The notes below the pieces were generated by a model, which made no database searches, was not told the origin of the DNA, and saw only the letters and a program-made list of their open reading frames with translations. A stretch of 12,258 bases of DNA from a virus. Taxonomy: Duplodnaviria > Heunggongvirae > Uroviricota > Caudoviricetes. Below, in pieces: positions 1 through 12,258 of the stretch (positions are counted from its first letter, which is position 1; each line of letters opens with the position of its first letter). A program made the position numbers and the translations under genes. The stretch spans positions 1-12,258 of IMG/VR virus record IMGVR_UViG_2585427784_000003. The stretch is one strand, 5' to 3'.

Positions 1-1284
1 TTACTTCTTCGCCTCTGCAACCACTTTACTACCCACGCCGCGGTTATTGTATTCCCACATGCGGTTGTAGTTAGTGTCATTCAGATTGCGCTGTATTTCG
101 TCGTTATCATCTACGCTGCCGGTATTACCCGCAAACGGACGATTAGAGATCACCGCATCGGCCCACGGTTTCGCCGTGTTAAAACCTTCGTTGATGGCGC
201 TATCACGGATCACCACCTGACCGTTGGTATTGGCATCAACATCCAGCGAGCGGCCCAGTTGCGCCACACCATCACCGAAAGCATTGAAACGGCTGTTTAC
301 GGCGAGGAAACCGTAGTAAATGTTGGACAGCGTAGCCGGTGCAAACACATACGCTTCTTGCTGAGTACGTGAGTTCACCACGCGGAATTCGGTGTTATCG
401 AACACCACTGCGCCGCGACCAGAAACGATATCCACATCCCCTTCAATGTAGCTGTTGGTCACCAGCGTACGCGGCTGACGATTCGTTTCCAGACGGTTCT
501 GCACACCGCTGTTGGTGACAAAGAAGGTGTTCTGACGACCGAGAATGTTAACGTTGTTAATCTGTACCTGGTCACCATCAGTACGCAGTGCCACCGCCGG
601 ATGGTTACCTGCATCTACGCTATCGCCCAGCGTGTTTTCGATGGTCAGATTTTGCAGTTGCAGGCCATTGTTTTGTGACCAGAAGACCGCAGAGCAGAGA
701 ACACCGATACTGTCGCTGCGTTTGCTCTGGCAGCTATCGTACATATACCACGCTGGTTTACCTGGCATATATTTGCCGCGCGGGTTGACGTCGTGACGCC
801 AGTCGGCAGGGCTCATGCCACCATCAAGGGAAAGCCCAATCTTCACATCAATCGGTTTTTCACCTGTACCGTACAGAGTAATTCCACCCGGAGCGGCAGG
901 GACATATACCGTTCCCTGATACTCACCAGGCATCACGGCAATATACTGGCGCTTGTTGGTACGCTTGATAATTGCCGCATCTACCGCCGCCTGAATCGTG
1001 GTATGCGTTACACCTTGAGTGCCCGCCGGGCCGACAACAAAGTCAGGTTGCGCAGGCAGGGTAATCGGGGAAGGATTCCACGCTGCAGCACCTGGTGTCA
1101 GGGATGCAAAATAGTGTTGAGCATCGAAATTCTGCGCTTCTTTTGCCGACAGAATCGGGCGAGAAGAGGTACCAGGCGCGGTTTGATCAGAAGGACGTTG
1201 ATCGGGCGGGGTTGAGCTACAGGCGGTCAGCGTCACGCCAAAAGCCAATGCCAGCGCCAGACGGGAAACTGAAAATGTGTTCAC
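1..1284 (-). CDS. ybhC: Host pectinesterase-family outer-membrane lipoprotein (YbhC-like), complete 427 aa
   Basis: Full-length 427-aa ORF with a lipoprotein signal and lipobox (MNTFSVSRLALALAFGVTLTAC). Sequence and length match what I recall for E. coli YbhC, and it sits directly next to the lambda att core as expected for the gal-side flank of attB-lambda. No alignment was run. Confidence 0.85.
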   Translation of the reverse strand: MNTFSVSRLALALAFGVTLTACSSTPPDQRPSDQTAPGTSSRPILSAKEAQNFDAQHYFASLTPGAAAWNPSPITLPAQPDFVVGPAGTQGVTHTTIQAAVDAAIIKRTNKRQYIAVMPGEYQGTVYVPAAPGGITLYGTGEKPIDVKIGLSLDGGMSPADWRHDVNPRGKYMPGKPAWYMYDSCQSKRSDSIGVLCSAVFWSQNNGLQLQNLTIENTLGDSVDAGNHPAVALRTDGDQVQINNVNILGRQNTFFVTNSGVQNRLETNRQPRTLVTNSYIEGDVDIVSGRGAVVFDNTEFRVVNSRTQQEAYVFAPATLSNIYYGFLAVNSRFNAFGDGVAQLGRSLDVDANTNGQVVIRDSAINEGFNTAKPWADAVISNRPFAGNTGSVDDNDEIQRNLNDTNYNRMWEYNNRGVGSKVVAEAKK

Positions 1285-1330
1285 AGGTTGCTCCGGGCTA
1301 TGAAATAGAAAAATGAATCCGTTGAAGCCT

Positions 1331-1345
1331 GCTTTTTTATACTAA
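1331..1345. other. attL: attL common core (lambda O region, GCTTTTTTATACTAA)
   Basis: Exact 15-bp lambda core at 1331-1345, with host-type sequence (tgaagcct) on the ybhC side and phage P' arm sequence (gttggcattataaaaaagcattgc...) on the int side. Confidence 0.93.
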
Positions 1346-1422
1346 GTTGGCATTATAAAAAAGCATTGCTTATCAATTTGTTGCAACGAACAGGTCACTA
1401 TCAGTCAAAATAAAATCATTAT
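1346..1422. promoter_or_regulatory. attP P' arm: IHF H' site and Int arm-type sites P'1 to P'3
   Basis: An IHF-like motif (tatcaatttgttg, about 1371-1383) is followed by contiguous arm-type repeats (aggtcactat, cagtcaaaat, aaaatcattat) at about 1391-1422. The spacing to the int stop, about 81 bp from core centre, is what I recall for lambda. Confidence 0.8.
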
Positions 1423-2489
1423 TTGATTTCAATTTTGTCCCACTCCCTGCCTCTGTCATCACGATACTGTGATGCCATGGTGTCCGACTTATGCCCGAGA
1501 AGATGTTGAGCAAACTTATCGCTTATCTGCTTCTCATAGAGTCTTGCAGACAAACTGCGCAACTCGTGAAAGGTAGGCGGATCCCCTTCGAAGGAAAGAC
1601 CTGATGCTTTTCGTGCGCGCATAAAATACCTTGATACTGTGCCGGATGAAAGCGGTTCACGACGAGTAGATGCAATTATGGTTTCTCCGCCAAGAATCTC
1701 TTTGCATTTATCAAGTGTTTCCTTCATTGATATCCCGAGAGCATCAACATGCAATGTTGTTGGGATGGCAATTTTTACGCCTGTTTTGCTTTGCTCGACA
1801 TAAAGATATCCATCTACGATATCAGACCACTTCATTTCGCATAAATCACCAACTCGTTGCCCGGTAACAACAGCCAGTTCCATTGCAAGTCTGAGCCAAC
1901 ATGGTGATGATTCTGCTGCTTGATAAATTTTCAGGTATTCGTCAGCCGTAAGTCTTGATCTCCTTACCTCTGATTTTGCTGCGCGAGTGGCAGCGACAGG
2001 GTTTGTTGTTATATGGCCTTCAGCTATTGCCTCTCGGAATGCATCGCTCAGTGTTGATCTGATTAACTTGGCTGACGCCGCCTTGCCCTCGTCTATGTAT
2101 CCATTGAGCATTGCCGCAATTTCTTTTGTGGTGATGTCTTCAAGTGGAGCATCAGGCAGACCCCTCCTTATTGCTTTAATTTTGCTCATGTAATTTATGA
2201 GTGTCTTCTGCTTGATTCCTCTGCTGGCCAGGATTTTTTCGTAGCGATCAAGCCATGAATGTAACGTAACGGAATTATCACTGTTGATTCTCGCTGTCAG
2301 AGGCTTGTGTTTGTGTCCTGAAAATAACTCAATGTTGGCCTGTATGGCTTCAGTGATTGCGATTCGCCTGTCTCTGCCTAATCCAAACTCTTTACCCGTC
2401 CTTGGGTCCCTGTAGCAGTAATATCCATTGTTTCTTATATAAAGGTTAGGGGGTAAATCCCGGCGCTCATGACTTCGCCTTCTTCCCAT
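1419..2489 (-). CDS. int: Lambda integrase (tyrosine recombinase), 356 aa
   Basis: ORF translation MGRRRSHERRDLPPNLYIRNNGYYCYRDPRTGKEF...REWDKIEIK is near-identical to lambda Int as I recall it, with the same length and the same position relative to att and xis. Confidence 0.97.
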   Translation of the reverse strand: MGRRRSHERRDLPPNLYIRNNGYYCYRDPRTGKEFGLGRDRRIAITEAIQANIELFSGHKHKPLTARINSDNSVTLHSWLDRYEKILASRGIKQKTLINYMSKIKAIRRGLPDAPLEDITTKEIAAMLNGYIDEGKAASAKLIRSTLSDAFREAIAEGHITTNPVAATRAAKSEVRRSRLTADEYLKIYQAAESSPCWLRLAMELAVVTGQRVGDLCEMKWSDIVDGYLYVEQSKTGVKIAIPTTLHVDALGISMKETLDKCKEILGGETIIASTRREPLSSGTVSRYFMRARKASGLSFEGDPPTFHELRSLSARLYEKQISDKFAQHLLGHKSDTMASQYRDDRGREWDKIEIK

Positions 2490-2685
2490 TTCTGATCCTC
2501 TTCAAAAGGCTACCTGTTACTGGTCGATTTAAGTCAACCTTTACCGCTGATTCGTGGAACAGATACTCTCTTCCATCCTTAACCGGAGGAGGGAATATCC
2601 TGCACTCGCGTACCCATCGACGAACTGTTTCAAGGCTTCTTGGGCGTCGCTGGCGTGCGTTCCACTCCTGAAGTGTCAAGTACAT
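2467..2685 (-). CDS. xis: Lambda excisionase, 72 aa
   Basis: MYLTLQEWNARQRRPRSLETVRRWVRECRIFPPPVKDGREYLFHESAVKVDLNRPVTG... matches lambda Xis from memory. Its 3' end overlaps the int start by 23 nt, as in lambda. Confidence 0.95.
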   Translation of the reverse strand: MYLTLQEWNARQRRPRSLETVRRWVRECRIFPPPVKDGREYLFHESAVKVDLNRPVTGSLLKRIRNGKKAKS

Positions 2686-2712
2686 CGCAAAGTCTCCGCA
2701 ATTACACGCAAG

Positions 2713-2732
2713 AAAAAACCGCCATCAGGCGG
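2713..2732 (-). terminator. Small GC hairpin plus U6 on the minus strand (intrinsic-terminator-like), overlapping the orf55 stop
   Basis: Minus strand reads g-ccgcc-tgat-ggcgg-tttttt: a 5-bp GC stem, 4-nt loop and six U. The stem is short, so function is uncertain. Confidence 0.3.
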
Positions 2733-2892
2733 CTTGGTGTTCTTTCAGTTCTTCAATTCGAATATTGGTTACGTCTGCATGTGCTATCTGCGCCCACAGC
2801 ATCCAGTGGTCATAGCAGTCGCTGATGTTCTCGGCTTCGATAACTCTGTTGAATGGTTCTCCATTCCATTCACCTGTGACTCGGAAGTGCAT
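2725..2892 (-). CDS. Lambda orf55-like small hypothetical protein, 55 aa (below the ORF-track length cutoff)
   Basis: Hand translation of the minus strand gives MHFRVTGEWNGEPFNRVIEAENISDCYDHWMLWAQIAHADVTNIRIEELKEHQAA then a stop. This matches my recollection of the small lambda ORF just upstream of xis in the pL operon. Confidence 0.6.
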   Translation of the reverse strand: MHFRVTGEWNGEPFNRVIEAENISDCYDHWMLWAQIAHADVTNIRIEELKEHQAA

Positions 2893-2942
2893 TTATCATC
2901 TCCAAAAAACAAACCCCGCCGTAGCGAGTTCAGATAAAAGAA

Positions 2943-2962
2943 ATCCTCGTCAGTGCGAGGAT
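2943..2962 (-). terminator. Hairpin (7-bp stem atcctcg/cgaggat) followed on the minus strand by a U-rich tract
   Basis: Perfect inverted repeat at 2943-2949 and 2956-2962. The minus strand continues ttcttttatctg. It lies at the boundary of the replaced ea8.5/ea22 slot. Confidence 0.25.
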
Positions 2963-3134
2963 GCTGTTCATTGCTGCTATACACTTTTTTGCTCTCAACG
3001 TAAGCGGTAGCCCATTCTGTTGGGTTGGTGCAGTTGCTTTTAGGAAATGCTATTTACCCCTTAAATGTCGGCTGAAAGAGCTAAAATCCATGCAAAAAAT
3101 TTACGCAATTTTGTGTATTATTGTGCAGTAAGTA

Positions 3135-3737
3135 ATGAGCTATTTTCTGCGCAAAAAATGGATGGTAAATTTGTCCGGGTCAGGAAAAATTTTATGGGCG
3201 CTAAACATGAAAAAAGATTCGTATCCTTATTTGATTTGCATGACAGTTTCAGGGCTGATCTTTATTTTCCTTTTCTTCTGGTGGCGGGCAGATATCTACA
3301 GGGTCACGTTTCTTAATCAGAGTATATCCCACTATTACATTCTGTTTAGCATGGGAATAGCTTTTCTGTTATCTCTGTTTTGGGTTAAGAAGGGGATAGT
3401 AAAACAAAGAGGCTGGAAGAGTCTGTCAGCATACCTTAAGGTTTATGCAGGGATGTGCATATTTGCTGGATTTTTTCTGATTATACCCCTTACGACACTA
3501 ACTTATTTTTTGCCTGGAGAGACATCGTCTTATGTTGCACCGTATCGGTATACTTCCGGTAGTTCAAAAAGTTGTTCTGGAGCTGAGGTGGATGACCCCG
3601 ATCTACATGAGAATATTCGCATTTGCTATCCGTATCGCAATTATGAGTACGATAATATTATCTATGTTGAAAAGAAAATTAATATATTAGGTGCGGTAGT
3701 GACATATGCACAGACCGCGCGTGATGATACTGAATGA
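3135..3737 (+). CDS. Cargo (moron) gene: integral membrane protein with three predicted TM helices and a ~70-aa soluble C-terminus; function unknown
   Basis: 200-aa ORF on the strand opposite to the pL operon, in visibly AT-rich DNA. Hydrophobic segments are LICMTVSGLIFIFLFFWW, YYILFSMGIAFLLSLFWV and VYAGMCIFAGFFLIIPLTTLTYF. Alternative in-frame starts lie at 3162 and 3207; none has a strong ribosome-binding site, so the start is uncertain. Confidence 0.5.
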   Translation: MSYFLRKKWMVNLSGSGKILWALNMKKDSYPYLICMTVSGLIFIFLFFWWRADIYRVTFLNQSISHYYILFSMGIAFLLSLFWVKKGIVKQRGWKSLSAYLKVYAGMCIFAGFFLIIPLTTLTYFLPGETSSYVAPYRYTSGSSKSCSGAEVDDPDLHENIRICYPYRNYEYDNIIYVEKKINILGAVVTYAQTARDDTE

Positions 3738-3773
3738 TATAGTATATAGCGGGCAAGTTTTAGTTAATTTATC

Positions 3774-3795
3774 GAGGTAATATAATTTACCTCGA
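3774..3795 (+). terminator. Hairpin downstream of the membrane-protein gene (8-bp stem cgaggtaa/ttacctcg, 6-nt loop)
   Basis: Perfect 8-bp inverted repeat about 37 bp after the stop at 3737. There is no clean U-run after it, so this is only a candidate terminator. Confidence 0.3.
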
Positions 3796-3947
3796 CTCGT
3801 TTGTTCTGGTATTAATATTTCGCTTTACGACCGATTTTTATCTGATGATATCATGCGGTTTTCATATACTGACTTACTGTCTTTTCTCCGTTAGCGATTT
3901 TCTCCTGCTCAGCGATGATTTTATCTTTGGCTTCTAGTTAATTTCGC

Positions 3948-4169
3948 TCACTTCGAACCTCTCTGTTTACTGATAAGCTCCAGATCCTCCTGGCAACTTG
4001 CACAAGTCCGACAACCCTGAACGACCAGGCGTCTTCGTTCATCTATCGGATCGCCACACTCACAACAATGAGTGGCAGATATAGCCTGGTGGTTCAGGCG
4101 GCGCATTTTTATTGCTGTGTTGCGCTGTAATTCTTCAATTTCTGATGCTGAATCAATGATGTCTGCCAT
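3948..4169 (-). CDS. orf73: Lambda exo-xis region Orf73: TraR/DksA-family C4 zinc-finger protein
   Basis: 73-aa ORF with the four-cysteine motif CCECGDPIDERRRLVVQGCRTCASC. Position and size fit lambda orf73, a TraR homologue. Confidence 0.8.
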   Translation of the reverse strand: MADIIDSASEIEELQRNTAIKMRRLNHQAISATHCCECGDPIDERRRLVVQGCRTCASCQEDLELISKQRGSK

Positions 4170-4223
4170 CTTCCATTAATCCCTGAATTGTTGGTTAATA
4201 CGCTTGAGGGTGAATGCGAATAA

Positions 4224-4246
4224 TAAAAAAGGAGCCTGTAGCTCCC
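4224..4246 (-). terminator. Intrinsic-terminator-like hairpin on the minus strand between orf61-like and orf73
   Basis: Minus strand reads (g)ggagc-tacag-gctcc(t) followed by ttttttatta. It starts about 20 bp after the orf61-like stop. Confidence 0.45.
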
Positions 4247-4267
4247 TGATGATTTTGCTTTTCATGT

Positions 4268-4579
4268 TCATCGTTCCTTAAAGACGCCGTTTAACATGCC
4301 GATTGCCAGGCTTAAATGAGTCGGTGTGAATCCCATCAGCGTTACCGTTTCGCGGTGCTTCTTCAGTACGCTACGGCAAATGTCATCGACGTTTTTATCC
4401 GGAAACTGCTGTCTGGCTTTTTTGATTTCAGAATTAGCCTGACGGGCAATGCTGCGAAGGGCGTTTTCCTGCTGAGGTGTCATTGAACAAGTCCCATGTC
4501 GGCAAGCATAAGCACACAGAATATGAAGCCCGCTGCCAGAAAAATGCATTCCGTGGTTGTCATACCTGGTCTCTCTCAT
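4268..4579 (-). CDS. orf61: Lambda orf61-like exo-xis protein (longest ORF 103 aa; an internal start at 4483 would give 71 aa)
   Basis: Its start overlaps the orf63 stop by 20 nt, which I recall as the lambda orf61/orf63 arrangement. The ORF is longer than the 61 aa I remember for lambda orf61; cause unknown. Confidence 0.5.
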   Translation of the reverse strand: MRETRYDNHGMHFSGSGLHILCAYACRHGTCSMTPQQENALRSIARQANSEIKKARQQFPDKNVDDICRSVLKKHRETVTLMGFTPTHLSLAIGMLNGVFKER

Positions 4580-4751
4580 CTGCTTCTGCTTTCGCCACCA
4601 TCATTTCCAGCTTTTGTGAAAGGGATGCGGCTAACGTATGAAATTCTTCGTCTGTTTCTACTGGTATTGGCACAAACCTGACTCCAATTTGAGCGAGGCT
4701 ATGTGCCATCTCGATACTCGTTCTTAACTCAACGGGAGATGCTTTGTGCAT
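4560..4751 (-). CDS. orf63: Lambda exo-xis region Orf63, 63 aa
   Basis: 63-aa ORF ([37 protein letters not shown]...) at the expected place between orf60a and orf61. Confidence 0.75.
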   Translation of the reverse strand: MHKASPVELRTSIEMAHSLAQIGVRFVPIPVETDEEFHTLAASLSQKLEMMVAKAEADERDQV

Positions 4752-4906
4752 ACAGCTCCCCGTTTATTATTTATCTCCTCAGCCAGCCGCTGTGCTTTCA
4801 GGGGATTTCGGATAACAGAAAGGCCGGGAAATACCCAGCCTCGCTTCGTAACGGAGTAGACGAAAGTGATCGTGCCTACGCGGATATTATCGTGAGGATG
4901 TTTCAT
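4724..4906 (-). CDS. orf60a: Lambda exo-xis region Orf60a, 60 aa
   Basis: [60 protein letters not shown]. The start codon overlaps the exo stop by 4 nt, as in lambda. The ORF track begins two codons earlier, at 4912. Confidence 0.8.
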
Positions 4907-5583
4907 CGCCATTGCTCCCCAAATACAAAACCAATTTCAGCCAGTGCCTCGTCCATTTTTTCGATGAACTCCGGCACCATCTCGTCAAAACTCGCTATAT
5001 ACTTTTCATTCCGCTCAATCACGACATAATGAAGGCCTTCACGCTTCATACGCGGGTCATAGTTGGCAAAGTACCAGGCATCTTTTCGCGTCACCCACAT
5101 GCTGTACTGCACCTGGGCCATGTAAGCCGACTTTATGGCCTCGAAACCACCGAGCCGGAATTTCATGAAATCCCGGGAGGTAAACGGGTATTTCAGCTCA
5201 AGGCCATTGCCGTCACTGCATAAACCATCGGGAGAGCAGGCGGTGCGCATACTTTCGTCGCGATAGATGATCGGGGATTCAATAACATTTACGCCGGAAG
5301 TGAACTCAAACAGGGTTCTGGCGTCGTTCTCGTACTGTTTTCCCCAGGCCAGCGCTTTAGCGTTAACTTCCGGAGCCACACCGGTGCAAACCTCAGCTAG
5401 CAGGGTGTGGAAGTAGGACATTTTCATGTCAGGCCACTTCTTTCCTGATCGGGGCTTTGCTATCACGTTGTGAACTTCTGAAGCGGTGATGACGCCGAGC
5501 CGTAATTTGTGCCATGCATCATCCCCCTGTTCGACAGCTCTCACGTCGATCCCGGTACGCTGCAGGATAATGTCCGGTGTCAT
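4903..5583 (-). CDS. exo: Lambda exonuclease (Red-alpha), 226 aa
   Basis: [65 protein letters not shown]...[11 protein letters not shown] is near-identical to lambda Exo from memory. Confidence 0.97.
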
Positions 5584-5684
5584 GCTGCCACCTTCTGCTC
5601 AGTGGCTTTCTGTTTCAGGAATCCAAGAGCTTTCACTGCTTCGGCCTGTGTCAGTTCTGACGATGCGCGAATGTCGCGGCGAAA
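5580..5684 (-). pseudogene. bet: 3' remnant of bet (Red-beta): only the last ~34 codons, no start codon
   Basis: The minus-strand frame ending in the ATGA overlap with exo reads ...[34 protein letters not shown] then a stop, matching the lambda Bet C-terminus. Upstream the frame reaches a stop at about 5724 with no ATG, and homology ends at about 5684. Confidence 0.85.
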
Positions 5685-5906
5685 TACCAGAACATGCGGG
5701 CCAATGCGCTTACTGATGCGGAATTACGGCGCAAGGCTGCCGATGAACTGACTTGTATGACCGCGCGAATTAACCGTGGTGAGGCGATACCTGAACCAGT
5801 AAAACAACTTCCTGTCATGGGCGGTAGACCTCTAAATCGTGCACAGGCTCTGGCGAAGATCGCAGAAATCAAAGCGAAGTTCGGACTGAAAGGAGCAACT
5901 GTATGA
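5685..5906 (+). pseudogene. P: 3' remnant of replication gene P (C-terminal ~74 codons); an ATG at 5694 gives a 70-aa ORF
   Basis: Plus-strand frame reads YQNMRANALTDAELRRKAADELTCMTARINRGEAIPEPVKQLPVMGGRPLNRAQALAKIAEIKAKFGLKGATV then a stop, matching the lambda P C-terminus from memory. It begins directly at the bet junction, and the stop overlaps the ren start. Confidence 0.85.
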
Positions 5907-6184
5907 CGGGCAAAGAGGTAATTATTCATTATCTGGAGACGCACAAGAGCTTCTGTGCGCAGGACGTTGCTGCGGCAACAGGTGTGACAGTAACCTGCAT
6001 AAATCAGGCAGCAGCTAAAATGGCGCGGGCAGGAATCCTGGTCATTGATGGTAAGGTCTGGCGAACGGTGTATTACCGGTTCGCTACCAGAGAAGAACGG
6101 GAAGGAAAGGTGAGCACGAACCTGATTTTTAAGGAGTGTCGCCAGAGTGCCGCGATGAAGCGGGTGTTGGCGGTATATGGGTGA
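5903..6184 (+). CDS. ren: Lambda Ren protein, 93 aa
   Basis: MTGKEVIIHYLETHKSFCAQDVAAATGVTVTCINQAAAKMARAGILVIDGKVWRTVYYRFATREEREGKVSTNLIFKECRQSAAMKRVLAVYG matches lambda Ren from memory. Ribosome-binding site aaggag lies upstream, and the start overlaps the P stop (ATGA). Confidence 0.85.
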   Translation: MTGKEVIIHYLETHKSFCAQDVAAATGVTVTCINQAAAKMARAGILVIDGKVWRTVYYRFATREEREGKVSTNLIFKECRQSAAMKRVLAVYG

Positions 6185-6479
6185 TTAGTTATTACTTGAT
6201 TTGATGGTTATCTCGAAAACATCCAATCAAATTTAATGGTTTGCTTTGTGCGGGGAACTATAACAATGTTTCTAGCTTGGTGCTGTATGTATTAGTGAAT
6301 TAGTAGGGAATATATCCACACATTGATTAACACAAAAATATTTTAGATATTAAATGTAACTCAAAGGTTGAGTAATAATGGTTGTGTAGCGTATAACAGG
6401 ATGCTGAGGTAGTATTAAACAATGAATAAATCTGATTGACAAGCACCAGATAATACTGCGGGTCAATCATTAGACATGA

Positions 6480-6512
6480 ACGCCACTAGTTACTGAGAGT
6501 AACTAATGGCGT
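6480..6512. repeat. Near-perfect 15-bp inverted repeat (acgccactagttact / agtaactaatggcgt, one mismatch, 3-nt loop) in the AT-rich spacer
   Basis: Read directly from the sequence. It lies about 45 bp beyond the 3' end of the HD-domain gene and about 300 bp after ren. It may be a terminator or a protein-binding site. Confidence 0.3.
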
Positions 6513-6554
6513 TGTGTTTATAGTTAAGATGTTTTTTAAAACATCAGGGGGGCT

Positions 6555-8102
6555 CTACTTGTCTTTTTTAATATGATCAATCTCATCATTAAGACATTTA
6601 TCTATTTTTTTTATTAACACATTAATTTCTTCGGTGTTTTGGAGTTGAGTTGTCTTAGAAACAAAAACTCGAATAAAGAATTTAACATAGTGATAGGGTT
6701 GAAGTACATCGTTATACTTACATAAATCATTTATTGTATACTTGCCGCCTGTTTCTTTTTTTATTATTTTAGCTTGACTTGTATCGATATCTTTAAAGTT
6801 ATCTTCAATCTGAAAATCAAGAACCCATTCATCTCCTTTTAAATTATCCTCAATGATTTTGTTGATTTTCTTAGATATATTTTGTTTATATTCTTTGTAT
6901 CTGTTGTCGGAAATGTTAACATTAGAAAACGTGTGTTTTTTTTCATATATTTTTTTCCAAACATTTCTATCAACAATATCTTGAATTATAGCTTGAGAAT
7001 TTTTATCTAATGTGTTTTTAAGAGTGTTTTCTAAAAACGTTTTGTCTGGGTTTTCACGATAAAAGTGTTTGATGGACTCAATGAGAGTGTTTTTAGATTT
7101 TAAAGAGACAACATCATCAGTTTTTTTTCTAGAACACGCTTTGTTAAGCATCGCAGATAGTGCACGATTGGTCTTATGAAAATAAACTTGACTATAAAGC
7201 CCACTTCTTGCATTGGCAAATTCTAGTATTGAATCCATACCACTTTCTTTATATGCCAGGTAAACACTATTTTCAACTTTCACAGGAATAAATGACATTA
7301 ATAATCGTCCATAATCATAAATCCCATATTTAACGCCGGAGAAGTAGCTATCTCTAAGTAGGTAGTCCATTCTGTCCGCATCTATAGGTGAAGATGATAT
7401 GATTGAACCTAATAAAGGATATACATTTACTCCCTCAATGTTATTTTTAAAATCATATCTTTTATCAACAATTTTTATAATGCTTTCTGGATTAATAGCC
7501 GCTATGTTTTCTTTATAGACATCGTCGTCATTTGATTTATCTTGGGCTTCATTTTTTAATTCTTCAATAATTTCTTTAATAAAAATACATGATACTTGTT
7601 CGTGGGTTAACTTGTCATTATCACTTAAAGATATAATCTTATCGTATTGTTTATTTCCTTCAGTTTTGCATTTTTCTTTGAAATCTTTTACGGATATTGC
7701 AAAACTATCGAATTGGTGGGCAAGTGGGCCATGCCCAACATCGTGTAACAATGCTGCAATACGTAACTCCTGTATAAGACTTGAAGGCATTTTTTTTATA
7801 TCTAAATATAGATCAATGCCCATATTTTTTCGATTGTAAATTAGTGCATTTATATCAATATTTTTTAATATTTCATACGATAAATGCATTACACCGACAG
7901 AGTGTTCAAAGCGAGAGTGCATTGCAGAAGGAAATACTTTATATAGAAACGTGTTCTGCCTGATATCTCGTAGTCGTTGGAATAAAGGATGGTCAATTAT
8001 CTTTTTTTCTAGCTTAGTTATTCGAATCACTCCATGTATGGGATCTAAAAACTTCCCCAGAAGTAAGTCTTCAAAGTTCTCAAGTTTGTTTTTGTTTGTC
8101 AT
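6555..8102 (-). CDS. HD-domain dNTP triphosphohydrolase-like protein (SAMHD1/dGTPase family) with a long K/N/D-rich C-terminal extension, 515 aa
   Basis: Motifs seen in the translation: PLFQRLRDIRQ...HSRFEHSVGV, LLHDVGHGPLAH and DADRMDYLLRD, the metal-binding H...HD...D set of SAMHD1/Dgt-type enzymes. Ribosome-binding site aaggaaa precedes the ATG at 8102. The gene is visibly AT-rich. Confidence 0.85.
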   Translation of the reverse strand: MTNKNKLENFEDLLLGKFLDPIHGVIRITKLEKKIIDHPLFQRLRDIRQNTFLYKVFPSAMHSRFEHSVGVMHLSYEILKNIDINALIYNRKNMGIDLYLDIKKMPSSLIQELRIAALLHDVGHGPLAHQFDSFAISVKDFKEKCKTEGNKQYDKIISLSDNDKLTHEQVSCIFIKEIIEELKNEAQDKSNDDDVYKENIAAINPESIIKIVDKRYDFKNNIEGVNVYPLLGSIISSSPIDADRMDYLLRDSYFSGVKYGIYDYGRLLMSFIPVKVENSVYLAYKESGMDSILEFANARSGLYSQVYFHKTNRALSAMLNKACSRKKTDDVVSLKSKNTLIESIKHFYRENPDKTFLENTLKNTLDKNSQAIIQDIVDRNVWKKIYEKKHTFSNVNISDNRYKEYKQNISKKINKIIEDNLKGDEWVLDFQIEDNFKDIDTSQAKIIKKETGGKYTINDLCKYNDVLQPYHYVKFFIRVFVSKTTQLQNTEEINVLIKKIDKCLNDEIDHIKKDK

Positions 8103-8163
8103 GAGGCTTTCCTTTTGCTGTAGTTATAATACGAAATTTAAATAGTAATGATGTTTATAGTTT

Positions 8164-8192
8164 CAATGTGTTATCTAATGGTTAACACATTG
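8164..8192. promoter_or_regulatory. Perfect 10-bp inverted repeat (caatgtgtta, 9-bp spacer, taacacattg) about 60 bp upstream of the HD-domain gene start; candidate operator
   Basis: Perfect palindrome arms read directly. No U-run follows on either strand, so a protein-binding site is more likely than a terminator. Confidence 0.3.
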
Positions 8193-8460
8193 TGATGTAG
8201 CATATCAATATGGATTCATATGTTCAATTGGTCTGTGGAGTTTAGTTATGAATAAGATTGATTCTGGTAATACTTTGTAGTTTAAGCTAGAGGCGGGATT
8301 CGTGATGTTCAAATCAGTATGTAATGGAGGTTGTGCATTAGTACTTGCTGCTGGAAATTAAAAATAAAGTTGCAAGTAATCGACGTTTTCCGAGAGGAGG
8401 ATGTAGCATCGCTGACCAAAAAGTATCAACGATGCCTGTTTTGTTTTAACTACAAATTAA

Positions 8461-9804
8461 TTAAATTGCATCTGCAAACTCTGGGATTTTTCGCTCAAGT
8501 ATGATTGATGAGTTGCTGTTGTCGCTTTTTTTATTTTCATGATTACGAATAGCCAATGACTCATTAAAGTCTTTTGCGACTGCTGTCTCAATAAATTCAA
8601 TTTCTGAATCAGAGTGTTTTTTAACAGCTTCTTTGATCTCATCCAGAGTAACATAGAAAAACTCTTTTCTACGATTTACAAGATTGACTCTCTTTTTATC
8701 GAAGACATCATGTAGTTTTTTTTCTAATGATGGAGCGTCCTCCGAATAAATCATGGCATGCACATCAAAAATAAAAGGAACAGATGCATCACCAAGCTCA
8801 TTTACACGGTCTTGTGGATCAAGACGTCGTGTCATGCCTATTTTATAAACATTCTCCCCAAAAGAACCTATGTTCGAAATAATATAAACATGACCTTGTT
8901 TGGTTTGTTGTGCCATGGATAATGCTCTTTGATGCTTTGATTCAGCCTGCGACAAACTCTGTTCTAGTTCGGCAATGCGATTTTCGAGGCGCTGCTTCAT
9001 GTCACCAGTAACTTTTTCCATTTCCTTTCTTGCAGCTTCAATTGCTTTTTTATAACGGCGCTCTTCTGCCTCTGCGTCTTGCATGGCCTTTTCTATTTCT
9101 CGTTGTGCACGCTCCTCCTCTCTCATTTGTGCCCTTATTTCTGCCTGTTCTTCTTTTTCTTTCTGTTTTTGCTCACGATATTCATGGGTAAGCCACAACT
9201 CCTCAAGTTTTTTATTAAGGTATTTAGTATTTATATATATGTGATTTTGCTCGTTTAGTTTATTTATGGCCTCAAATGCCTTTGTGATGCGTTCTTCCAT
9301 TTTAGTGATATTTTTCCACGTGCAATTACTAATTGCAGCATCACATTCATTATTAAATGCTCTAGTAGTTAGCCTAATATTTCTGTCTGTCATTTTTTTA
9401 CCCTCTGCTCGAGAGCCTTCAACAGTCCATTGGGTTGTGCAATATACTGCACCAGAGTGGGTTTTATCCCGCAGCATTAATTTCTGTTCATCCCTGATGG
9501 ATTTTATTTTGTTTTTAAATTGCTCTGAATCTTCAAAATTAAAATGAGGTTCGTAAAATCCTAGTTCGGCTAGTTCAACATCTTCTGAATAAATAGAAAT
9601 TTGCTTTACTAGCTTATCATATATTTCTTTCTTCTCTTTATAAGTTCTTCTTAGTTCTTGGATTTGTTTATTGATACCATCCATTTTTTCAATGGTGTTT
9701 GTTAGTTCATTATTGGCATTTTCTTTTACTTTTTGGGACTCTTCTTTTATAATGGAGTATTCTTGCTCTGTTTTCTCAATAAGCTTCTTACATTCCTCTT
9801 CCAC
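8461..9804 (-). CDS. DUF4041 plus T5orf172 (GIY-YIG-like) protein with a central coiled coil, 447 aa as called; it probably begins upstream at 9964 (see frameshift finding)
   Basis: DUF4041-like block (...GFYEPHFNFEDSEQFKNKIKSIRDEQKLMLRDKTHSGAVYCTTQWTVEGSRAEGKKMTDRNIRLTTRAFNNECDAAISNCTWKN...), then an E/K/R/Q-rich coiled coil, then a T5orf172-like block (GHVYIISNIGSFGENVYKIGMTRRLDPQDRVNELGDASVPFIFDVHAMIYSEDAPSLEKKLHDVFDKKRVNLVNRRKEFFYV). The called start is a GTG with no ribosome-binding site. Confidence 0.85.
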   Translation of the reverse strand: MEEECKKLIEKTEQEYSIIKEESQKVKENANNELTNTIEKMDGINKQIQELRRTYKEKKEIYDKLVKQISIYSEDVELAELGFYEPHFNFEDSEQFKNKIKSIRDEQKLMLRDKTHSGAVYCTTQWTVEGSRAEGKKMTDRNIRLTTRAFNNECDAAISNCTWKNITKMEERITKAFEAINKLNEQNHIYINTKYLNKKLEELWLTHEYREQKQKEKEEQAEIRAQMREEERAQREIEKAMQDAEAEERRYKKAIEAARKEMEKVTGDMKQRLENRIAELEQSLSQAESKHQRALSMAQQTKQGHVYIISNIGSFGENVYKIGMTRRLDPQDRVNELGDASVPFIFDVHAMIYSEDAPSLEKKLHDVFDKKRVNLVNRRKEFFYVTLDEIKEAVKKHSDSEIEFIETAVAKDFNESLAIRNHENKKSDNSNSSIILERKIPEFADAI

Positions 9805-9856
9805 ATTAAAATAATCTGCAAAGCGAGATTTGTATTCTTCATTTTTTTGATTGCTA

Positions 9857-9964
9857 TCACTTAATTCTAATTGTATTTTTTTTGATGCGTTTGATTGCAG
9901 CTATATATAGAACAAGAACAACCAATAAAAATATGATTGCAAGTAATAGTGGAGTTTGAGTCAT
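9857..9964 (-). CDS. 35-aa ORF encoding a single transmembrane helix (MTQTPLLLAIIFLLVVLVLYIAAIKRIKKNTIRIK); probably the displaced N-terminus of the DUF4041 gene
   Basis: ATG at 9964 is preceded by aagga with about 9-nt spacing. The ORF ends 53 bp before the GTG of the 447-aa ORF, and the two frames differ by one nucleotide across an A8 run (coding strand; T8 at 9876-9883 on plus). Confidence 0.45.
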   Translation of the reverse strand: MTQTPLLLAIIFLLVVLVLYIAAIKRIKKNTIRIK

Positions 9965-10390
9965 TCGTGCTATTCCTTACGGACAATTTAAGACGTTTTG
10001 TATTAAATCCTGTTCAATGTGTATGCGGGTGATTGCTACCGCTTACAATCTTCATAATTATCAGTTAGATAGACTCGCTAGTAAATAATTTCATTTTTTG
10101 CAATATTCTTATTGAATATTTCAATTTATGAAATGAGCTCTTTATCCTTTCAAGGCGAAAGGTTTCTTCTTCGGAAATATTTGCTCTCGTGTGACGTATA
10201 AAGGCCTTTGATTTTTAAAAAACAGTAGGAAATAATATAGTTACTGTCGGCCTGAACACCCGGCGGTGGGGTTGCGCTAAACGGGGACGTTTATGCGCAC
10301 ATACAATCTAAACTCTCTTCTCCCTTCACAGATGCAGAAATGCACCTGCGATTTTTTGCATCCAACGTTTGACCTCTGCGGAGGTGAAGC

Positions 10391-10846
10391 ATGAACCTAC
10401 CACAAGATGGCATCAAATTACATCGTGGCAACTTCACCGCTATCGGCCAGCAGATCCAGCCTTATCTGGAGGACGGAAAATGCTTTCGCATGGTGCTTAA
10501 ACCGTGGCGTGAGAAACGCAGTCTTTCCCAGAGTGCACTCAGCCACATGTGGTACAGCGAAATCAGTGAATACCTTATCAGCAGGGGTAAAACGTTCGCC
10601 ACTCCAGCTTGGGTAAAAGATGCTCTCAAACACACATATCTCGGTTATGAAACCAAAGACCTGGTTGATGTCGTAACCGGTGATATCACCACTATCCAGT
10701 CGTTACGCCATACCTCCGACCTTGATACCGGAGAGATGTATGTCTTCCTGTGTAAGGTTGAAGCCTGGGCGATGAATATTGGCTGCCACCTGACTATTCC
10801 GCAGAGCTGCGAGTTCCAGCTGCTGCGTGATAAGCAGGAGGCGTAA
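10391..10846 (+). CDS. ybcN: DLP12-type nin-region protein YbcN, 151 aa
   Basis: [67 protein letters not shown]... matches E. coli YbcN from memory. Ribosome-binding site ggaggtg lies upstream. Confidence 0.88.
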
Positions 10847-11016
10847 TGGCTACACCGCTTATTCGTGTCATGAACGGACACATCTACAAAATACCAAATC
10901 GTCGTAAGCGTAGGCCTGAGCTGAAACCATCCGAAATACCAACACTGCTCGGATATACCGCCAGCCTGGTTGATAAAAAATGGTTGCGACTGGCAGCAAG
11001 GAGGAATCATGGCTGA
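10846..11016 (+). CDS. ninE: NinE, 56 aa (below the ORF-track length cutoff)
   Basis: Hand translation: [56 protein letters not shown]. The start overlaps the ybcN stop (TAATG). Confidence 0.8.
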   Translation: MATPLIRVMNGHIYKIPNRRKRRPELKPSEIPTLLGYTASLVDKKWLRLAARRNHG

Positions 11017-11299
11017 TTTGAGAAAAGCAGCGCGTGGTCGGGAATGCCAGGTAAGAATCCCTGGCGTATGTAATGGCAATCCTGAAACGTCTGTACTGGC
11101 ACATATCCGGCTGGCTGGATTGTGCGGTACCGGTATCAAACCGCCAGACCTGATTGCCACCATTGCATGTTCTGCCTGTCACGACGAGATCGACCGTCGC
11201 ACGCATTTTGTTGACGCTGGATATGCAAAAGAATGCGCGCTGGAAGGTATGGCGAGAACGCAGGTTATCTGGCTGAAAGAGGGGGTAATTAAGGCGTGA
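11009..11299 (+). CDS. ybcO: DLP12-type YbcO (putative nuclease), 96 aa from the ATG at 11009
   Basis: [96 protein letters not shown], preceded by aggagg. The ORF track starts earlier, at 10970. Confidence 0.85.
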
Positions 11300-11658
11300 A
11301 TACCTACAATATCACATTACCCTGGCCGCCGAGCAATAATCGCTATTACCGCCATAATCGCGGGCGCACGCACATCAGCGCAGAGGGGCAGGCATACCGC
11401 GAAAACGTCGCCCGAATCATTAAAAACGCAATGCTGGATATCGGCCTGGCTATGCCTGTGAAAATCCGCATTGAGTGTCACATGCCGGATCGCCGTCGCC
11501 GTGACCTGGATAATCTACAAAAGGCCGCTTTTGACGCACTCACCAAAGCAGGTTTCTGGTTGGATGATGCTCAGGTCGTTGATTACCGCGTTGTGAAGAT
11601 GCCGGTTGTCAAAGGTGGAAAGCTGGAACTGACCATCACTGAACAGGGAGATGAATGA
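11296..11658 (+). CDS. rusA: Holliday-junction resolvase RusA, 120 aa
   Basis: [95 protein letters not shown]... matches E. coli RusA from memory. Confidence 0.95.
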
Positions 11659-11795
11659 TGTTTGAGTTTTATATGGCAGAACTTCTTCGCCACCGCTGGA
11701 TGCGCCTGCGCTTATATCGTTTCCCCGGTTCTGTTTTGACCGATTACCGAATACTGAAGAATTACGCCAAAACACTGACAGGAGCAGGAGTATGA
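11655..11795 (+). CDS. ylcG: Small nin-region protein YlcG, 46 aa (below the ORF-track length cutoff)
   Basis: Hand translation: [46 protein letters not shown]. The start overlaps the rusA stop (ATGA). Confidence 0.7.
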
Positions 11796-11880
11796 AGTCA
11801 GAGATAACAATCAACTAATACTGTTTTGTTGATTTTTGCTTGTAATTGGCGTTCTGGTCTGAGTTTTGTGGAGTAAGTTG

Positions 11881-12258
11881 ATGCGTGATATTCAGATGGT
11901 TCTTGAGCGTTGGGGAGCGTGGGCGGCTAATAATCATGAAGATGTGACCTGGTCGTCCATTGCCGCCGGTTTTAAGGGATTAATTCCTTCAAAAGTAAAA
12001 TCTCGCCCACAATGTTGTGACGATGACGCGATGATCATTTGCGGGTGCATGGCCCGTCTGAAAAAGAACAACAGCGATTTGCATGATTTATTGGTGGACT
12101 ATTATGTCGGCGGCATGACTTTTATGGCGCTTGCACGTAAGCATGGGCGATCTGATTGTTGGGTTGGCAGGATGCTCCAGAAAGCTGAGGGCGTAGTGGA
12201 GGGTATGCTGATGGTGTTGGATCTCCGATTGGAGATGGATGCTGATTGTTCGAAATAA
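11881..12258 (+). CDS. quuD: Late-gene antiterminator Q (DLP12 QuuD-like), 125 aa from the ATG at 11881
   Basis: [75 protein letters not shown]... matches DLP12-type Q from memory. Ribosome-binding site ggag lies 7 nt upstream, and the stop codon is the last three bases of the window. Confidence 0.8.

What the first reader, a model, noticed from the sequence alone, without database searches (positions are those of the whole stretch)
5580..5906. Single deletion joins the 3' end of bet to the 3' end of P, removing the immunity and replication region
On the minus strand only the last ~34 codons of bet remain ([34 protein letters not shown]). Immediately adjacent on the plus strand the P reading frame resumes at YQNMRANALTD... 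The breakpoint is at about 5684/5685. Both fragments lack their 5' ends and point away from the junction, as expected when the divergently transcribed block between them is excised. The prophage therefore has no repressor, no N antiterminator and no O/P replication module, which explains its cryptic state. It also means the downstream ren, nin and Q genes have lost pR.
Basis: partly seen in the sequence, partly recalled or inferred. Interest (0 to 1): 0.6.

Follow-up and report, generated by a model that had tools for sequence, protein, structure and literature searches.

The report
Prophage-disabling deletion at a recurrent breakpoint
A lambda-like virus resident in an E. coli chromosome has lost a 5-kb block holding its control and replication genes, an ordinary kind of viral decay, but the cut lies at a spot in gene P where many independent deletions in related viruses also begin.

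Summary
Window 5580-5686 (-) is the last 34 codons of bet. Window 5685-5906 (+) is the last 73 codons of P. A nearly identical intact prophage (E. coli 2018-11-3CC, 99.5-99.6% identity on both flanks) carries exactly 4,994 bp more between them. That block holds most of bet, gam, kil, an S24 repressor, a cro-like gene, a YdaT-domain gene, an O-like initiator with its iterons, and P codons 1-160. The joint is clean, with a 2-bp TA overlap at 5685-5686. The same joint occurs in at least two public assemblies, so it is not an assembly error. It is a new allele of a known kind: K-12 DLP12 has the analogous exoD|peaD joint.

The unexpected part is the breakpoint. The same TA in P codon 161 serves as one end of at least nine other deletions with different partners, running in both directions. 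Among deletions of 353 bp or more in this prophage family, 15 of 16 overlaps contain TA, against 7.5% expected. The sites are reused and share a flank motif, C-N-G-K-TA. An IS1203-like element sits at exactly this site in one relative. The mechanism that makes this site recur is not established.

The parts
1..1284 (-). ybhC, the chromosomal flank of the lambda attachment site
   Evidence: 427-aa ORF. Annotated as ybhC in every related genome.
1331..1345 (+). 15-bp lambda att common core GCTTTTTTATACTAA (attL)
   Evidence: One exact match, against 0.01 expected by chance. It lies between ybhC and int.
1419..2685 (-). int (1419-2489) and xis (2467-2685), both intact
   Evidence: ORFs of 356 aa and 72 aa. 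Pfam Phage_integrase and Exc on the identical genes in L004.
4903..5583 (-). exo (YqaJ / lambda exonuclease family), intact
   Evidence: 226-aa ORF. Pfam YqaJ on the same gene in L004. Annotated as lambda exonuclease family in L002.
5580..5686 (-). bet 3' remnant: last 34 codons plus stop; its promoter and 227 codons are gone
   Evidence: Translation. PHROG RecT-like ssDNA annealing protein, profile positions 108-142 of 158. Collinear with L002 bet at 17580-18365 and with lambda bet.
5685..5686 (.). Deletion joint: TA present at both parental sites, so the crossover lies within or beside these two bases
   Evidence: The left parent reads GCGAAATA|TCTGGG. The right parent reads AACCTG|TACCAGAAC.
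5685..5906 (+). P 3' remnant: codons 161-233 plus stop; an internal ATG at 5694 opens a 70-aa ORF
   Evidence: Translation. PHROG P-like helicase loader, positions 160-232 of 236. PHROG 22541 is a family made of this 70-aa ORF. Pfam Phage_lambda_P gives a partial hit of 25 bits against a cut-off of 26. The first 159 bases to the right of the joint (window 5685-5843) are 100% identical to L002 P, and the wider right flank is 99.48% identical.
5903..6184 (+). ren-like gene (93 aa), intact, now without the upstream rightward promoter
   Evidence: PHROG 142 Ren-like exclusion protein, E = 1e-40. The same protein lies downstream of an intact P in all ten longest contigs that carry it.
6555..9964 (-). 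Low-GC cargo (28-37% GC): HD-domain protein (6555-8102) and a PD-Lambda-1/SNIPE (DUF4041 + T5orf172) defence gene (8461-9964), the latter broken by a +1 frameshift near 9876
   Evidence: Pfam. PADLOC PD-Lambda-1, E = 3e-191, starting at profile position 60. GC profile. T8 in the window against T7 in L002. The intact gene is 500 aa in relatives.
10391..12258 (+). nin region and Q: ybcN, ninE, ybcO, rusA (11296-11658), ylcG, and Q (11866 onwards, cut by the window end)
   Evidence: ORFs. Pfam and annotation on identical genes in L004 and L002.

Best explanation
Shown: the feature is a genuine, inherited 4,994-bp deletion in a lambda-like prophage integrated at the lambda attachment site next to ybhC. 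It fuses the tail of bet (- strand) to the tail of P (+ strand) at a TA dinucleotide.

Shown by comparison with an intact sister prophage: the deletion removes both early promoters and their operators, the repressor, the cro-like and YdaT-domain genes, kil, gam, most of bet, the O-like initiator with the origin iterons, and P codons 1-160.

Inferred: because the repressor and the promoters it controls went together, the loss is not lethal. The prophage can no longer be induced or replicate, and ren, the nin genes and Q are left without their normal promoter. int, xis and attL survive, as does a defence-gene cargo, so the element persists as a locked-in remnant.

Inferred, about 60% taken together: the joint was not made at a random position. 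Its right end is a recurrent breakpoint in P. It was made either by excision of an IS3-family element inserted at TA(C/T)C with one-sided loss of the left flank, or by an unidentified process that recombines C-N-G-K-TA-type sites.
For: The intact comparator differs only by the 4,994 bp, with 99.5-99.6% identity on both flanks and no filler DNA.

The intact state is the common one. The ren-like protein is indexed in 1,217 blocks, and all 10 longest contexts have full bet to P. The 70-aa P' ORF is indexed in 43 blocks.

The same joint occurs in L004 and L011, and L009 is a derivative of it. No promoter-like site replaces pR. K-12 DLP12 has the analogous exo'|'P joint.

Recurrent breakpoint. The same TA joins to bet at a second position (L005), the O iterons (L006), DUF1317 (L012), upstream of a DLP12-type int (L010), ybcN (L252), the nin region (L253-5), IS3 orfB (L257/8) and RusA (P0079).

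TA rule: 15 of 16 overlaps contain TA, against 7.5% expected, P about 2e-16. Flank motif: C at k=4 in 22 of 38 half-sites, z = 5.8, family-wise p < 1/3000, and leave-one-out AUC 0.87.

An IS1203-like IS lies directly after CCTGTATC in L256. The same IS type makes 4-bp target duplications at two other places in P. According to published work, IS3-family excision with IEE leaves IS-free deletions from a few nt to more than 40 kb, joined at short homology of up to 6 bp.
Against: Nothing argues against the deletion itself. The doubts concern how it formed.

The window holds no IS remnant. No complete E. coli genome of 5,426 has an IS at exactly this site. The one IS-bearing example is in a different prophage lineage and P allele, and its contig ends inside the IS, so its target duplication is inferred rather than seen.

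The window's left site scores poorly on the flank motif (55th percentile). Six of the partners at this breakpoint were found by a look-up keyed on the 70-aa ORF, which only sees breaks in about 105 nt of P.

The window contains no recombinase that could explain a TA-specific exchange. Whether the late genes are intact is unknown, so 'cryptic' remains an inference.
Confidence: 0.9

Rival explanations
1. Plain spontaneous illegitimate recombination. A chance microhomology-mediated deletion, by replication slippage or by RecBCD/LigA end joining, happened to use two TA dinucleotides. No IS and no site-preferring enzyme was involved. The apparent hot spot would then reflect ascertainment plus selection for survivors.
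For: A 2-bp overlap with no filler DNA is typical of such events. The window's left site has no special flank. There is no IS scar. Part of the hot-spot sample was found through an ORF-specific look-up.
Against: 15 of 16 large deletions use TA, against 7.5% expected. Sites are reused even in the unbiased sample of metagenome, viral and complete-genome loci: 18481 twice, 22296 three times, 17557/8 twice and 17775/6 twice. The flank motif is significant. The three small deletions (107-180 bp) have overlaps without TA (CGCG, GACA, GC), so TA is not a general property of the region. Extended imperfect homology does not explain the joints.
Confidence: 0.25
2. IS insertion followed by IS excision with adjacent loss. 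An IS3-family element (IS1203/IS629 type) inserted at TA(C/T)C in P codon 161-162. Transposase, helped by the IS-excision enhancer IEE, then removed the IS together with the 5 kb to its left. The preserved right flank, starting at the target duplication TACC, was joined to a TA in bet.
For: An IS1203-like end TGAACCGCCCCGGG follows ...CCTGTATC in L256 (protein P0088). 4-bp target duplications are seen for this IS type in P (ACAA in L259, AATG in L225), which predicts TATC, exactly the fixed boundary. Deletions run in both directions from the site, with overlaps at or within 1-2 nt of the predicted flank ends. Two other IS sites in P (about 92 and 264) lie within 2-6 nt of other rearrangement ends. 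Published work reports that IEE is present in more than 30% of E. coli assemblies, that IS-free adjacent deletions range from a few nt to more than 40 kb, and that joints use short homology of up to 6 bp.
Against: No complete genome has an IS at this site. Independent insertions at the same 4 bp would be needed in several lineages. The model does not explain why many other sites without a known IS (17775, 18481, 21710, 16879 and others) are also reused, nor why the overlap is always TA rather than whatever the target duplication happens to be. The presence of iee in the source genome is untested.
Confidence: 0.3
3. A site-preferring exchange with an obligatory 2-bp TA overlap. An unidentified enzyme, whether a serine-recombinase-like protein, a junction resolvase such as prophage RusA cutting 5' of CC, or a topoisomerase, cuts or exchanges DNA at quasi-palindromic C-N-G-K-TA-M-C-N-G sites. 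It recombines pairs of such sites within the derepressed early region and so strips out the lethal block.
For: The length distribution of the overlaps (TA eight times, 3 bp four times, 4 bp twice, 5 bp once) fits 'TA required plus chance extension'. A network of reused sites pairs in many combinations. The half-site motif has C at k=4 and G at k=1-3, leave-one-out AUC 0.87, and nearly every joint has at least one partner above the 97th percentile. GGTA/TACC half-sites are about six times enriched by hand count. From general knowledge, this matches the reported RusA preference for cutting 5' of CC. rusA is carried by these prophages.
Against: The window contains no recombinase gene apart from int. 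A serine recombinase (ybcK) occurs only in the DLP12 loci. No inversions between such sites were found. Mirror symmetry of the flanks is only suggestive (p = 0.07). The type II topoisomerase cleavage determinants do not fit. The E. coli topoisomerase I motif (C, then cleavage 4 nt downstream inside TA, oligo ...TCATTAT...) is one nucleotide out of register with the motif found here.
Confidence: 0.3
4. Assembly artefact, or the reverse polarity: the short form is ancestral and the 5-kb block is an insertion in the relatives.
For: None was found. This is considered only because the joint is absent from 5,426 complete genomes and from the species-representative, metagenome and viral scans.
Against: The joint is present in independent assemblies (L004 in two samples, L011) and in a derivative (L009). 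A 2-bp overlap cannot cause a k-mer misjoin. The 'insert' restores complete bet and P reading frames and a standard lambdoid gene order, which only a deletion explains.
Confidence: 0.02

Closest known systems
DLP12 cryptic prophage of E. coli K-12 (exoD | peaD | renD joint at argU)
   Same: A 3' fragment of an early leftward recombination gene on the - strand abuts a 3' fragment of P on the + strand, followed by ren and the nin-Q region. The repressor, operators, O and the origin are missing. The overlap is also TA (gggaggTA|cgagtattg).
   Different: It is a different prophage at a different attachment site (argU, not ybhC/att-lambda). The ends also differ: exo rather than bet on the left, and P position 391 rather than 481 on the right. 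DLP12 itself carries at least four different joints in different strains, so these are independent events.
Intact sister prophage at att-lambda in E. coli 2018-11-3CC (NZ_AP021895.1) and relatives
   Same: 99.5-99.6% identical over the whole window, with the same int/xis, b-region, exo, ren-like gene, HD and PD-Lambda-1 cargo, nin genes and Q.
   Different: It carries the full 4,994 bp (bet to P) and an unbroken 500-aa PD-Lambda-1 gene. It continues into lysis, terminase, portal and capsid genes.
IS-excision-enhancer (IEE) associated deletions next to IS3-family elements
   Same: One end is fixed at an IS insertion point, the other end varies by kilobases on either side, no IS remains, and the joint has 2-6 bp of homology. 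This matches the geometry around P codon 161.
   Different: No IS, transposase or iee is seen in the window. The link rests on one relative with an IS at the site. The strict TA overlap and the reuse of many other sites are not described for IEE events in the papers read.
Classical immunity-deleted 'cryptic' lambda lysogens from lambda genetics (recalled from general knowledge, not tested here)
   Same: Viable lysogens that have lost immunity through a deletion that also removes the early promoters and replication genes.
   Different: Those were laboratory isolates, some carrying a retained IS2 at the joint. Here the joint is natural and free of any IS.

Membership tests
Lambda Bet (RecT family), 3' fragment | Sequence collinear with the 3' end of bet, ending in the ATGA overlap with exo | tested here: met
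   96.4% nt identity to lambda 31248-32131. PHROG RecT-like, positions 108-142 of 158. The fragment aligns to the 3' end of the annotated bet of L002. Pfam gives no hit because only 35 residues remain.
Lambda P (Phage_lambda_P helicase loader), 3' fragment | Sequence collinear with P codons 161-233, ending in the overlap with ren | tested here: met
   The first 159 bases right of the joint are 100% identical to L002 P, and the wider right flank is 99.48% identical. 90.9% identity to lambda 40062-40557. PHROG 109, positions 160-232 of 236. The Pfam partial hit of 25 bits is just under the 26-bit cut-off.
Defective lambdoid prophage with an immunity/replication deletion (DLP12 type) | Integrated with int and an att core; leftward-gene fragment abutting a P fragment; no repressor, operators, O or origin; nin-Q retained | tested here: met
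Defective lambdoid prophage with an immunity/replication deletion (DLP12 type) | Cannot be induced or replicate | not testable with these tools
   This needs mitomycin C or UV induction and plaque or qPCR assays on the source strain. The late genes lie beyond the window.
IS/IEE-associated adjacent deletion | One deletion end coincides with an IS insertion site and its target duplication | tested here: inconclusive
   An IS1203-like end lies directly after CCTGTATC in L256, with a predicted 4-bp duplication TATC. It is in another lineage, and no such IS was found in 5,426 complete genomes.
IS/IEE-associated adjacent deletion | IS3/IS1/IS30-family transposase and iee present in the host when the event happened | not testable with these tools
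   The source genome outside the window could not be queried.
Site-specific recombination with a 2-bp overlap (serine-recombinase type) | Identical central dinucleotide at both partner sites | tested here: met
   TA occurs in 15 of 16 overlaps, against 7.5% expected.
Site-specific recombination with a 2-bp overlap (serine-recombinase type) | Dyad-symmetric recognition flanks and a cognate recombinase gene; inversions between inverted sites | tested here: not met
   The flank motif is significant but its symmetry is only suggestive (p = 0.07). The window has no serine recombinase. No inversions were seen.
Type IA topoisomerase (E. coli Topo I) cleavage site | C four nt upstream of the cleavage, with cleavage inside TA (C-N-N-T|A) | tested here: not met
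   Here the C lies four nt upstream of the T (C-N-N-N-T-A), one nucleotide out of register. The flanks are G-rich, not AT-rich.
Type II topoisomerase (gyrase/Topo IV) cleavage site | -4G/+8C, -2A/+6T and -1T/+5A around a 4-nt stagger | tested here: not met
   With TA placed at the centre of the stagger, the sites here have G at -1 and C at -3.

The most novel reading that the evidence does not exclude
Lambdoid prophages in E. coli lose their immunity and replication block through a sequence-directed process, not through random illegitimate recombination. The process joins pairs of quasi-palindromic C-N-G-K-TA-M-C-N-G sites with an obligatory TA overlap. P codon 161 is its strongest site. This would be a previously undescribed recombination activity, or an undescribed specificity of a known one such as RusA, IEE with an IS3-family transposase, or a topoisomerase. 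It would drive prophage domestication.
Probability: 0.35. Interest if true: 0.7.

Novelty: new member of a known kind. Interest (0 to 1): 0.42.

Why it matters
Taken alone, the deletion is a textbook example of how a temperate phage becomes a locked-in remnant. Its value is that an almost identical intact sister maps it to the nucleotide.

The wider pattern would matter more if it holds. Prophage decay is usually modelled as random deletion filtered by selection. A strict TA overlap, reused sites and a predictive flank motif instead point to a directed mutational process. That would affect how domestication rates are modelled and how defective prophages are recognised. It would also bear on how defence-gene cargo such as PD-Lambda-1 comes to be fixed in chromosomes without a viable phage around it.

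The pattern also gives a directly testable system: sequence the junctions in survivors of induction of the intact prophage, in defined mutant hosts.

Tried and rejected
**Searches that found nothing.**
- Exact searches for the joint found nothing in the species-representative genomes, the metagenome contigs or the viral contigs.
- No complete E. coli genome has the joint in one piece. It was found only by looking up the 70-aa P' ORF.

**Extended homology.** Imperfect homology beside the joints was tested with anchored alignments against all TA sites. It was not significant apart from a marginal p = 0.05 for the window. The first script had a faulty overlap routine, and its output was discarded.

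**Inversions or back-jumps between the same sites.** Only IS1-related hits turned up.

**An IS at the P site in complete genomes.** IS3-family elements occur in or near P at other positions only.

**Mechanisms compared by eye and dropped for lack of fit.** None of these was tested formally:
- lambda Int core-type sites;
- Chi;
- the IS5 target YTAR;
- the IS630 target CTAG;
- IS1 ends;
- the integron secondary-site consensus.

**Topoisomerase motifs.** The type II cleavage motif does not fit. The E. coli Topo I motif is one nucleotide out of register.

**Loci set aside.**
- L013 is an Illumina adapter artefact.
- L064, P0001 and P0002 are tandem duplications inside P.
- L003, L007 and L008 are frameshifts or scaffold gaps, not joints.

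**Not held.** The Kusumoto 2011 paper is not in the library. What is said about it comes from papers that cite it.
Full report
**What the window is.** The window starts in ybhC (1-1284, - strand). It then runs through the 15-bp lambda att core (1331-1345, one exact match against 0.01 expected). Next come int, xis and a b-region, then exo (4903-5583), the feature in question, and a ren-like gene. After that lies a low-GC insert with an HD-domain gene and a DUF4041/T5orf172 gene, followed by ybcN, ninE, ybcO, rusA, ylcG and the start of Q. It is a lambda-like prophage at the lambda attachment site. The window is 100% identical over 11,906 bases to GCA_000713395.1 contig JORW01000034.1 (L004).

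**Checking the observation.** The minus strand of 5580-5687 translates to [35 protein letters not shown]. The plus strand from 5685 reads YQNMRANALTD... through to a stop at 5904-5906. The left flank aligns to lambda up to base 32131, inside bet. The right flank aligns from lambda 40062, inside P. PHROG profiles place the fragments at the C-terminal ends of RecT-like and P-like proteins.

**Mapping the event.**
- A search of 5,426 complete E. coli genomes found no genome with the joint in one piece.
- It did find a sister prophage in strain 2018-11-3CC that covers the whole window at 99.6% identity but spans 17,252 bases.
- Window 1-5686 equals L002 12001-17686, and window 5685-12258 equals L002 22679-29252. 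Exactly 4,994 bp are therefore absent.
- Both parental sites read TA at the break (GCGAAATA|TCTGGG and AACCTG|TACCAG). There is no filler DNA.
- The missing DNA holds bet codons 1-227, gam, kil, an S24-peptidase repressor, a YdaS-like cro, a YdaT-domain gene, a 339-aa O-like initiator with its iterons, and P codons 1-160.
- The gap between kil and the repressor has only a 78-aa arginine-rich ORF with no family match. An N-type antiterminator is therefore possible but unproven.

**Polarity and reality.** The ren-like protein is indexed in 1,217 blocks of the public collection, and all ten longest contexts have complete bet to P. The 70-aa ORF left by the truncation is indexed in 43 blocks. The long form restores two complete reading frames and the standard gene order, so the short form is the derived one. 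The identical joint is in L004 (two samples) and in Logan SRR33937580 (L011, 3 mismatches in 6.9 kb). L009 keeps the joint and has a further deletion that used the 8-bp GAAATACC created by it. An assembly error is excluded.

**Consequences.** The divergent early promoters and operators lie between the repressor and cro-like genes, inside the deleted block. A consensus scan finds no promoter-like site near the joint on the plus strand; the only match in 4800-6600 is within chance expectation. The inference is that ren, the nin genes and Q have lost their normal transcription, and that exo and the b-region have lost pL. Without a repressor, an origin, O or P, the element cannot be induced or replicate. 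Losing the repressor together with the promoters it controls, and with kil, is what makes the deletion survivable. The window ends in Q, so the state of the late genes is unknown.

**Closest known case.** K-12 DLP12 at argU has a 279-nt exo fragment on the minus strand. It abuts a 312-nt P fragment on the plus strand, followed by ren (interrupted by IS3) and emrE. Other strains carry different DLP12 joints:
- bet 222 nt | P from position 356 (L001);
- exo | P from position 96 (L119);
- bet 204 nt | P from position 98 (L120).

The window is thus a new allele, in a different prophage, of a well-known kind of decay.

**The unexpected part: a recurrent breakpoint.** The look-up of the 70-aa ORF returned five further joints with different left partners. 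All meet P at the same nucleotide, 5' of TACCAGAACATG (or TATCAGAACATG):
- bet at a second position (L005);
- the O iterons (L006);
- DUF1317 (L012);
- a site next to a DLP12-type int (L010);
- the derivative L009.

That look-up can only detect breaks in about 105 nt of P. A single shared position was still not expected.

An independent route was a homology search with full-length P. It returned fusion proteins in which P stops at Tyr161 and continues into YbcN, a nin-region ORF, RusA or IS3 orfB (P0084, P0082, P0079, P0096). Nucleotide sequences for three of these show TA, TAT or TAC overlaps at the same site. The site is therefore used by deletions running both left and right.

**A general TA rule.** All 264 fetched loci were scanned against L002 for clean deletions, which gave 21 joint types.
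- The three small deletions (107-180 bp) have overlaps CGCG, GACA and GC.
- A fourth joint without TA, with a 1-bp overlap, spans 17 kb and has an IS1 end at the joint (L125).
- The other 17 deletions are 353 bp or larger. Fifteen have overlaps containing TA: TA eight times, TAC twice, TAA, GTA, TACC twice and GGTAC. One is blunt between ...GATA and TACTGG.... One is GGCTG.
- Random site pairs with at least 2 bp of overlap contain TA in 7.5% of cases, so 15 of 16 has P of about 2e-16.
- Sites are reused in many combinations. 16879 pairs with 22296 and 22679. 17557/8 pairs with 22294 and 21965. 17775/6 pairs with 22296, 22679 and 18481. 18481 also pairs with 14394. 21710/1 pairs with 21358 and 22678.
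- Reuse is also seen when only the unbiased metagenome, viral and complete-genome loci are counted.

**A flank motif.** The 19 distinct sites carry more flank information than random TA sites (5.7 against 3.1 +/- 0.5 bits, 0 of 300 random sets reaching it). Pooling both strands gives the half-site C-N-G-K-TA. C is at the fourth position in 22 of 38 half-sites (z = 5.8, family-wise p < 1/3000), and G is enriched at positions 1-3. Mirror symmetry is only suggestive (p = 0.07). A leave-one-out score ranks the used sites at a median 93rd percentile of 854 TA sites, with AUC 0.87. Nearly every joint has at least one partner above the 97th percentile. The window's right site ranks at the 97th percentile and its left site at the 55th.

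**Candidate mechanisms.**

(a) *IS excision.*
- An IS1203-like end follows ...CCTGTATC in L256.
- The same IS type makes 4-bp duplications elsewhere in P, which predicts TATC, exactly the fixed boundary.
- IS3-family elements are reported to be excised with help from IEE, leaving IS-free deletions of a few nt to more than 40 kb with short homology at the joint.
- This explains a fixed end with variable partners on both sides.
- It does not explain the many other reused sites or the strict TA overlap, and no complete genome carries an IS at this spot.

(b) *A TA-overlap exchange by an unidentified enzyme.*
- The overlap-length distribution and the site network fit this.
- However, no recombinase is present in the window, no inversions were found, and the symmetry is weak.
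- RusA, which these prophages encode and which (from general knowledge) cuts junctions 5' of CC, would fit the GGTA/TACC half-sites but not the C at position 4.

(c) *Topoisomerases.*
- The type II determinants do not fit.
- E. coli Topo I does prefer a C followed by cleavage in TA. Judged from the published consensus oligonucleotide, however, it is one nucleotide out of register with the motif here, and it prefers AT-rich flanks.

(d) *Chance microhomology.* This remains possible for the window's own event, but it does not explain the family-wide pattern.

**Verdict.** The finding is real and correctly located. Its interpretation is right in outline, with corrections about the nature of the immunity region and the unverified N gene. 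As a single event it is ordinary. The recurrent TA breakpoint in P, and the TA and motif rule for large deletions in this prophage family, are statistically solid and unexplained. They are the part worth following up.

Noticed in passing
window 9870-9880 (gene 8461-9964, - strand): The PD-Lambda-1/SNIPE (DUF4041 + T5orf172) anti-phage gene carries a +1 frameshift in a homopolymer (T8 here, T7 in the intact relative). The open frame is 447 aa instead of 500 aa and starts at profile position 60. This is either real inactivation or a homopolymer sequencing error shared with GCA_000713395.1.
   Followed up: partly
window 6200-10300: A 28-37% GC insert between ren and ybcN carries a 515-aa HD-domain protein (no PADLOC match) and PD-Lambda-1, both on the minus strand. 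Relatives have different cargo at this position (emrE-ybcK in DLP12, Bro-N/P22_AR genes, IS elements), so it is a cargo hot spot.
   Followed up: partly
L256 2975-3000 (GCA_004522755.1); also L259, L225, L146: IS1203/IS629-like elements are inserted in gene P at no fewer than five places (P positions about 92, 264-267, 482-485, about 588 and 600-603). 4-bp target duplications are visible at two of them. One insertion coincides exactly with the recurrent deletion breakpoint.
   Followed up: yes
L001, L119, L120, L264 (DLP12 at argU in four strains): DLP12, usually treated as one ancient remnant, carries at least four different bet/exo-to-P deletion joints in different E. coli strains. Either it decayed independently several times or it was repeatedly repaired by recombination with incoming phages.
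   Followed up: partly
proteins P0011 and P0063; P0090, P0092 and P0093: Fusion proteins suggest further reused breakpoints in P. Gly206 (GGT|A) joins to RusA and to NinE. Leu71 (LAFRENG) joins to three different points in O. These were seen at protein level only; the nucleotide joints were not fetched.
   Followed up: no
L064; proteins P0001, P0002: Tandem duplications inside gene P. One has an end within 2 nt of the IS insertion site at P 264-267.
   Followed up: no
L002 18915-19151 (- strand), inside the DNA missing from the window: A 78-aa ORF with an arginine-rich N-terminus (RLRGVRGVKRTRERR) sits where lambda has N. It has no Pfam or PHROG match. It may be an unannotated N-like antiterminator.
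   Followed up: partly
window 5694-5906: The 70-aa ORF left by the truncation matches PHROG 22541, a family that consists of this truncated P ORF. The 60-aa bet remnant of relatives likewise matches PHROG 17377. Decay products are catalogued there as phage protein families of unknown function.
   Followed up: no
window 3135-3737 (+ strand): A 200-aa predicted membrane protein in a 40% GC stretch of the b-region, transcribed opposite to its neighbours. It has no family or defence-system match.
   Followed up: no
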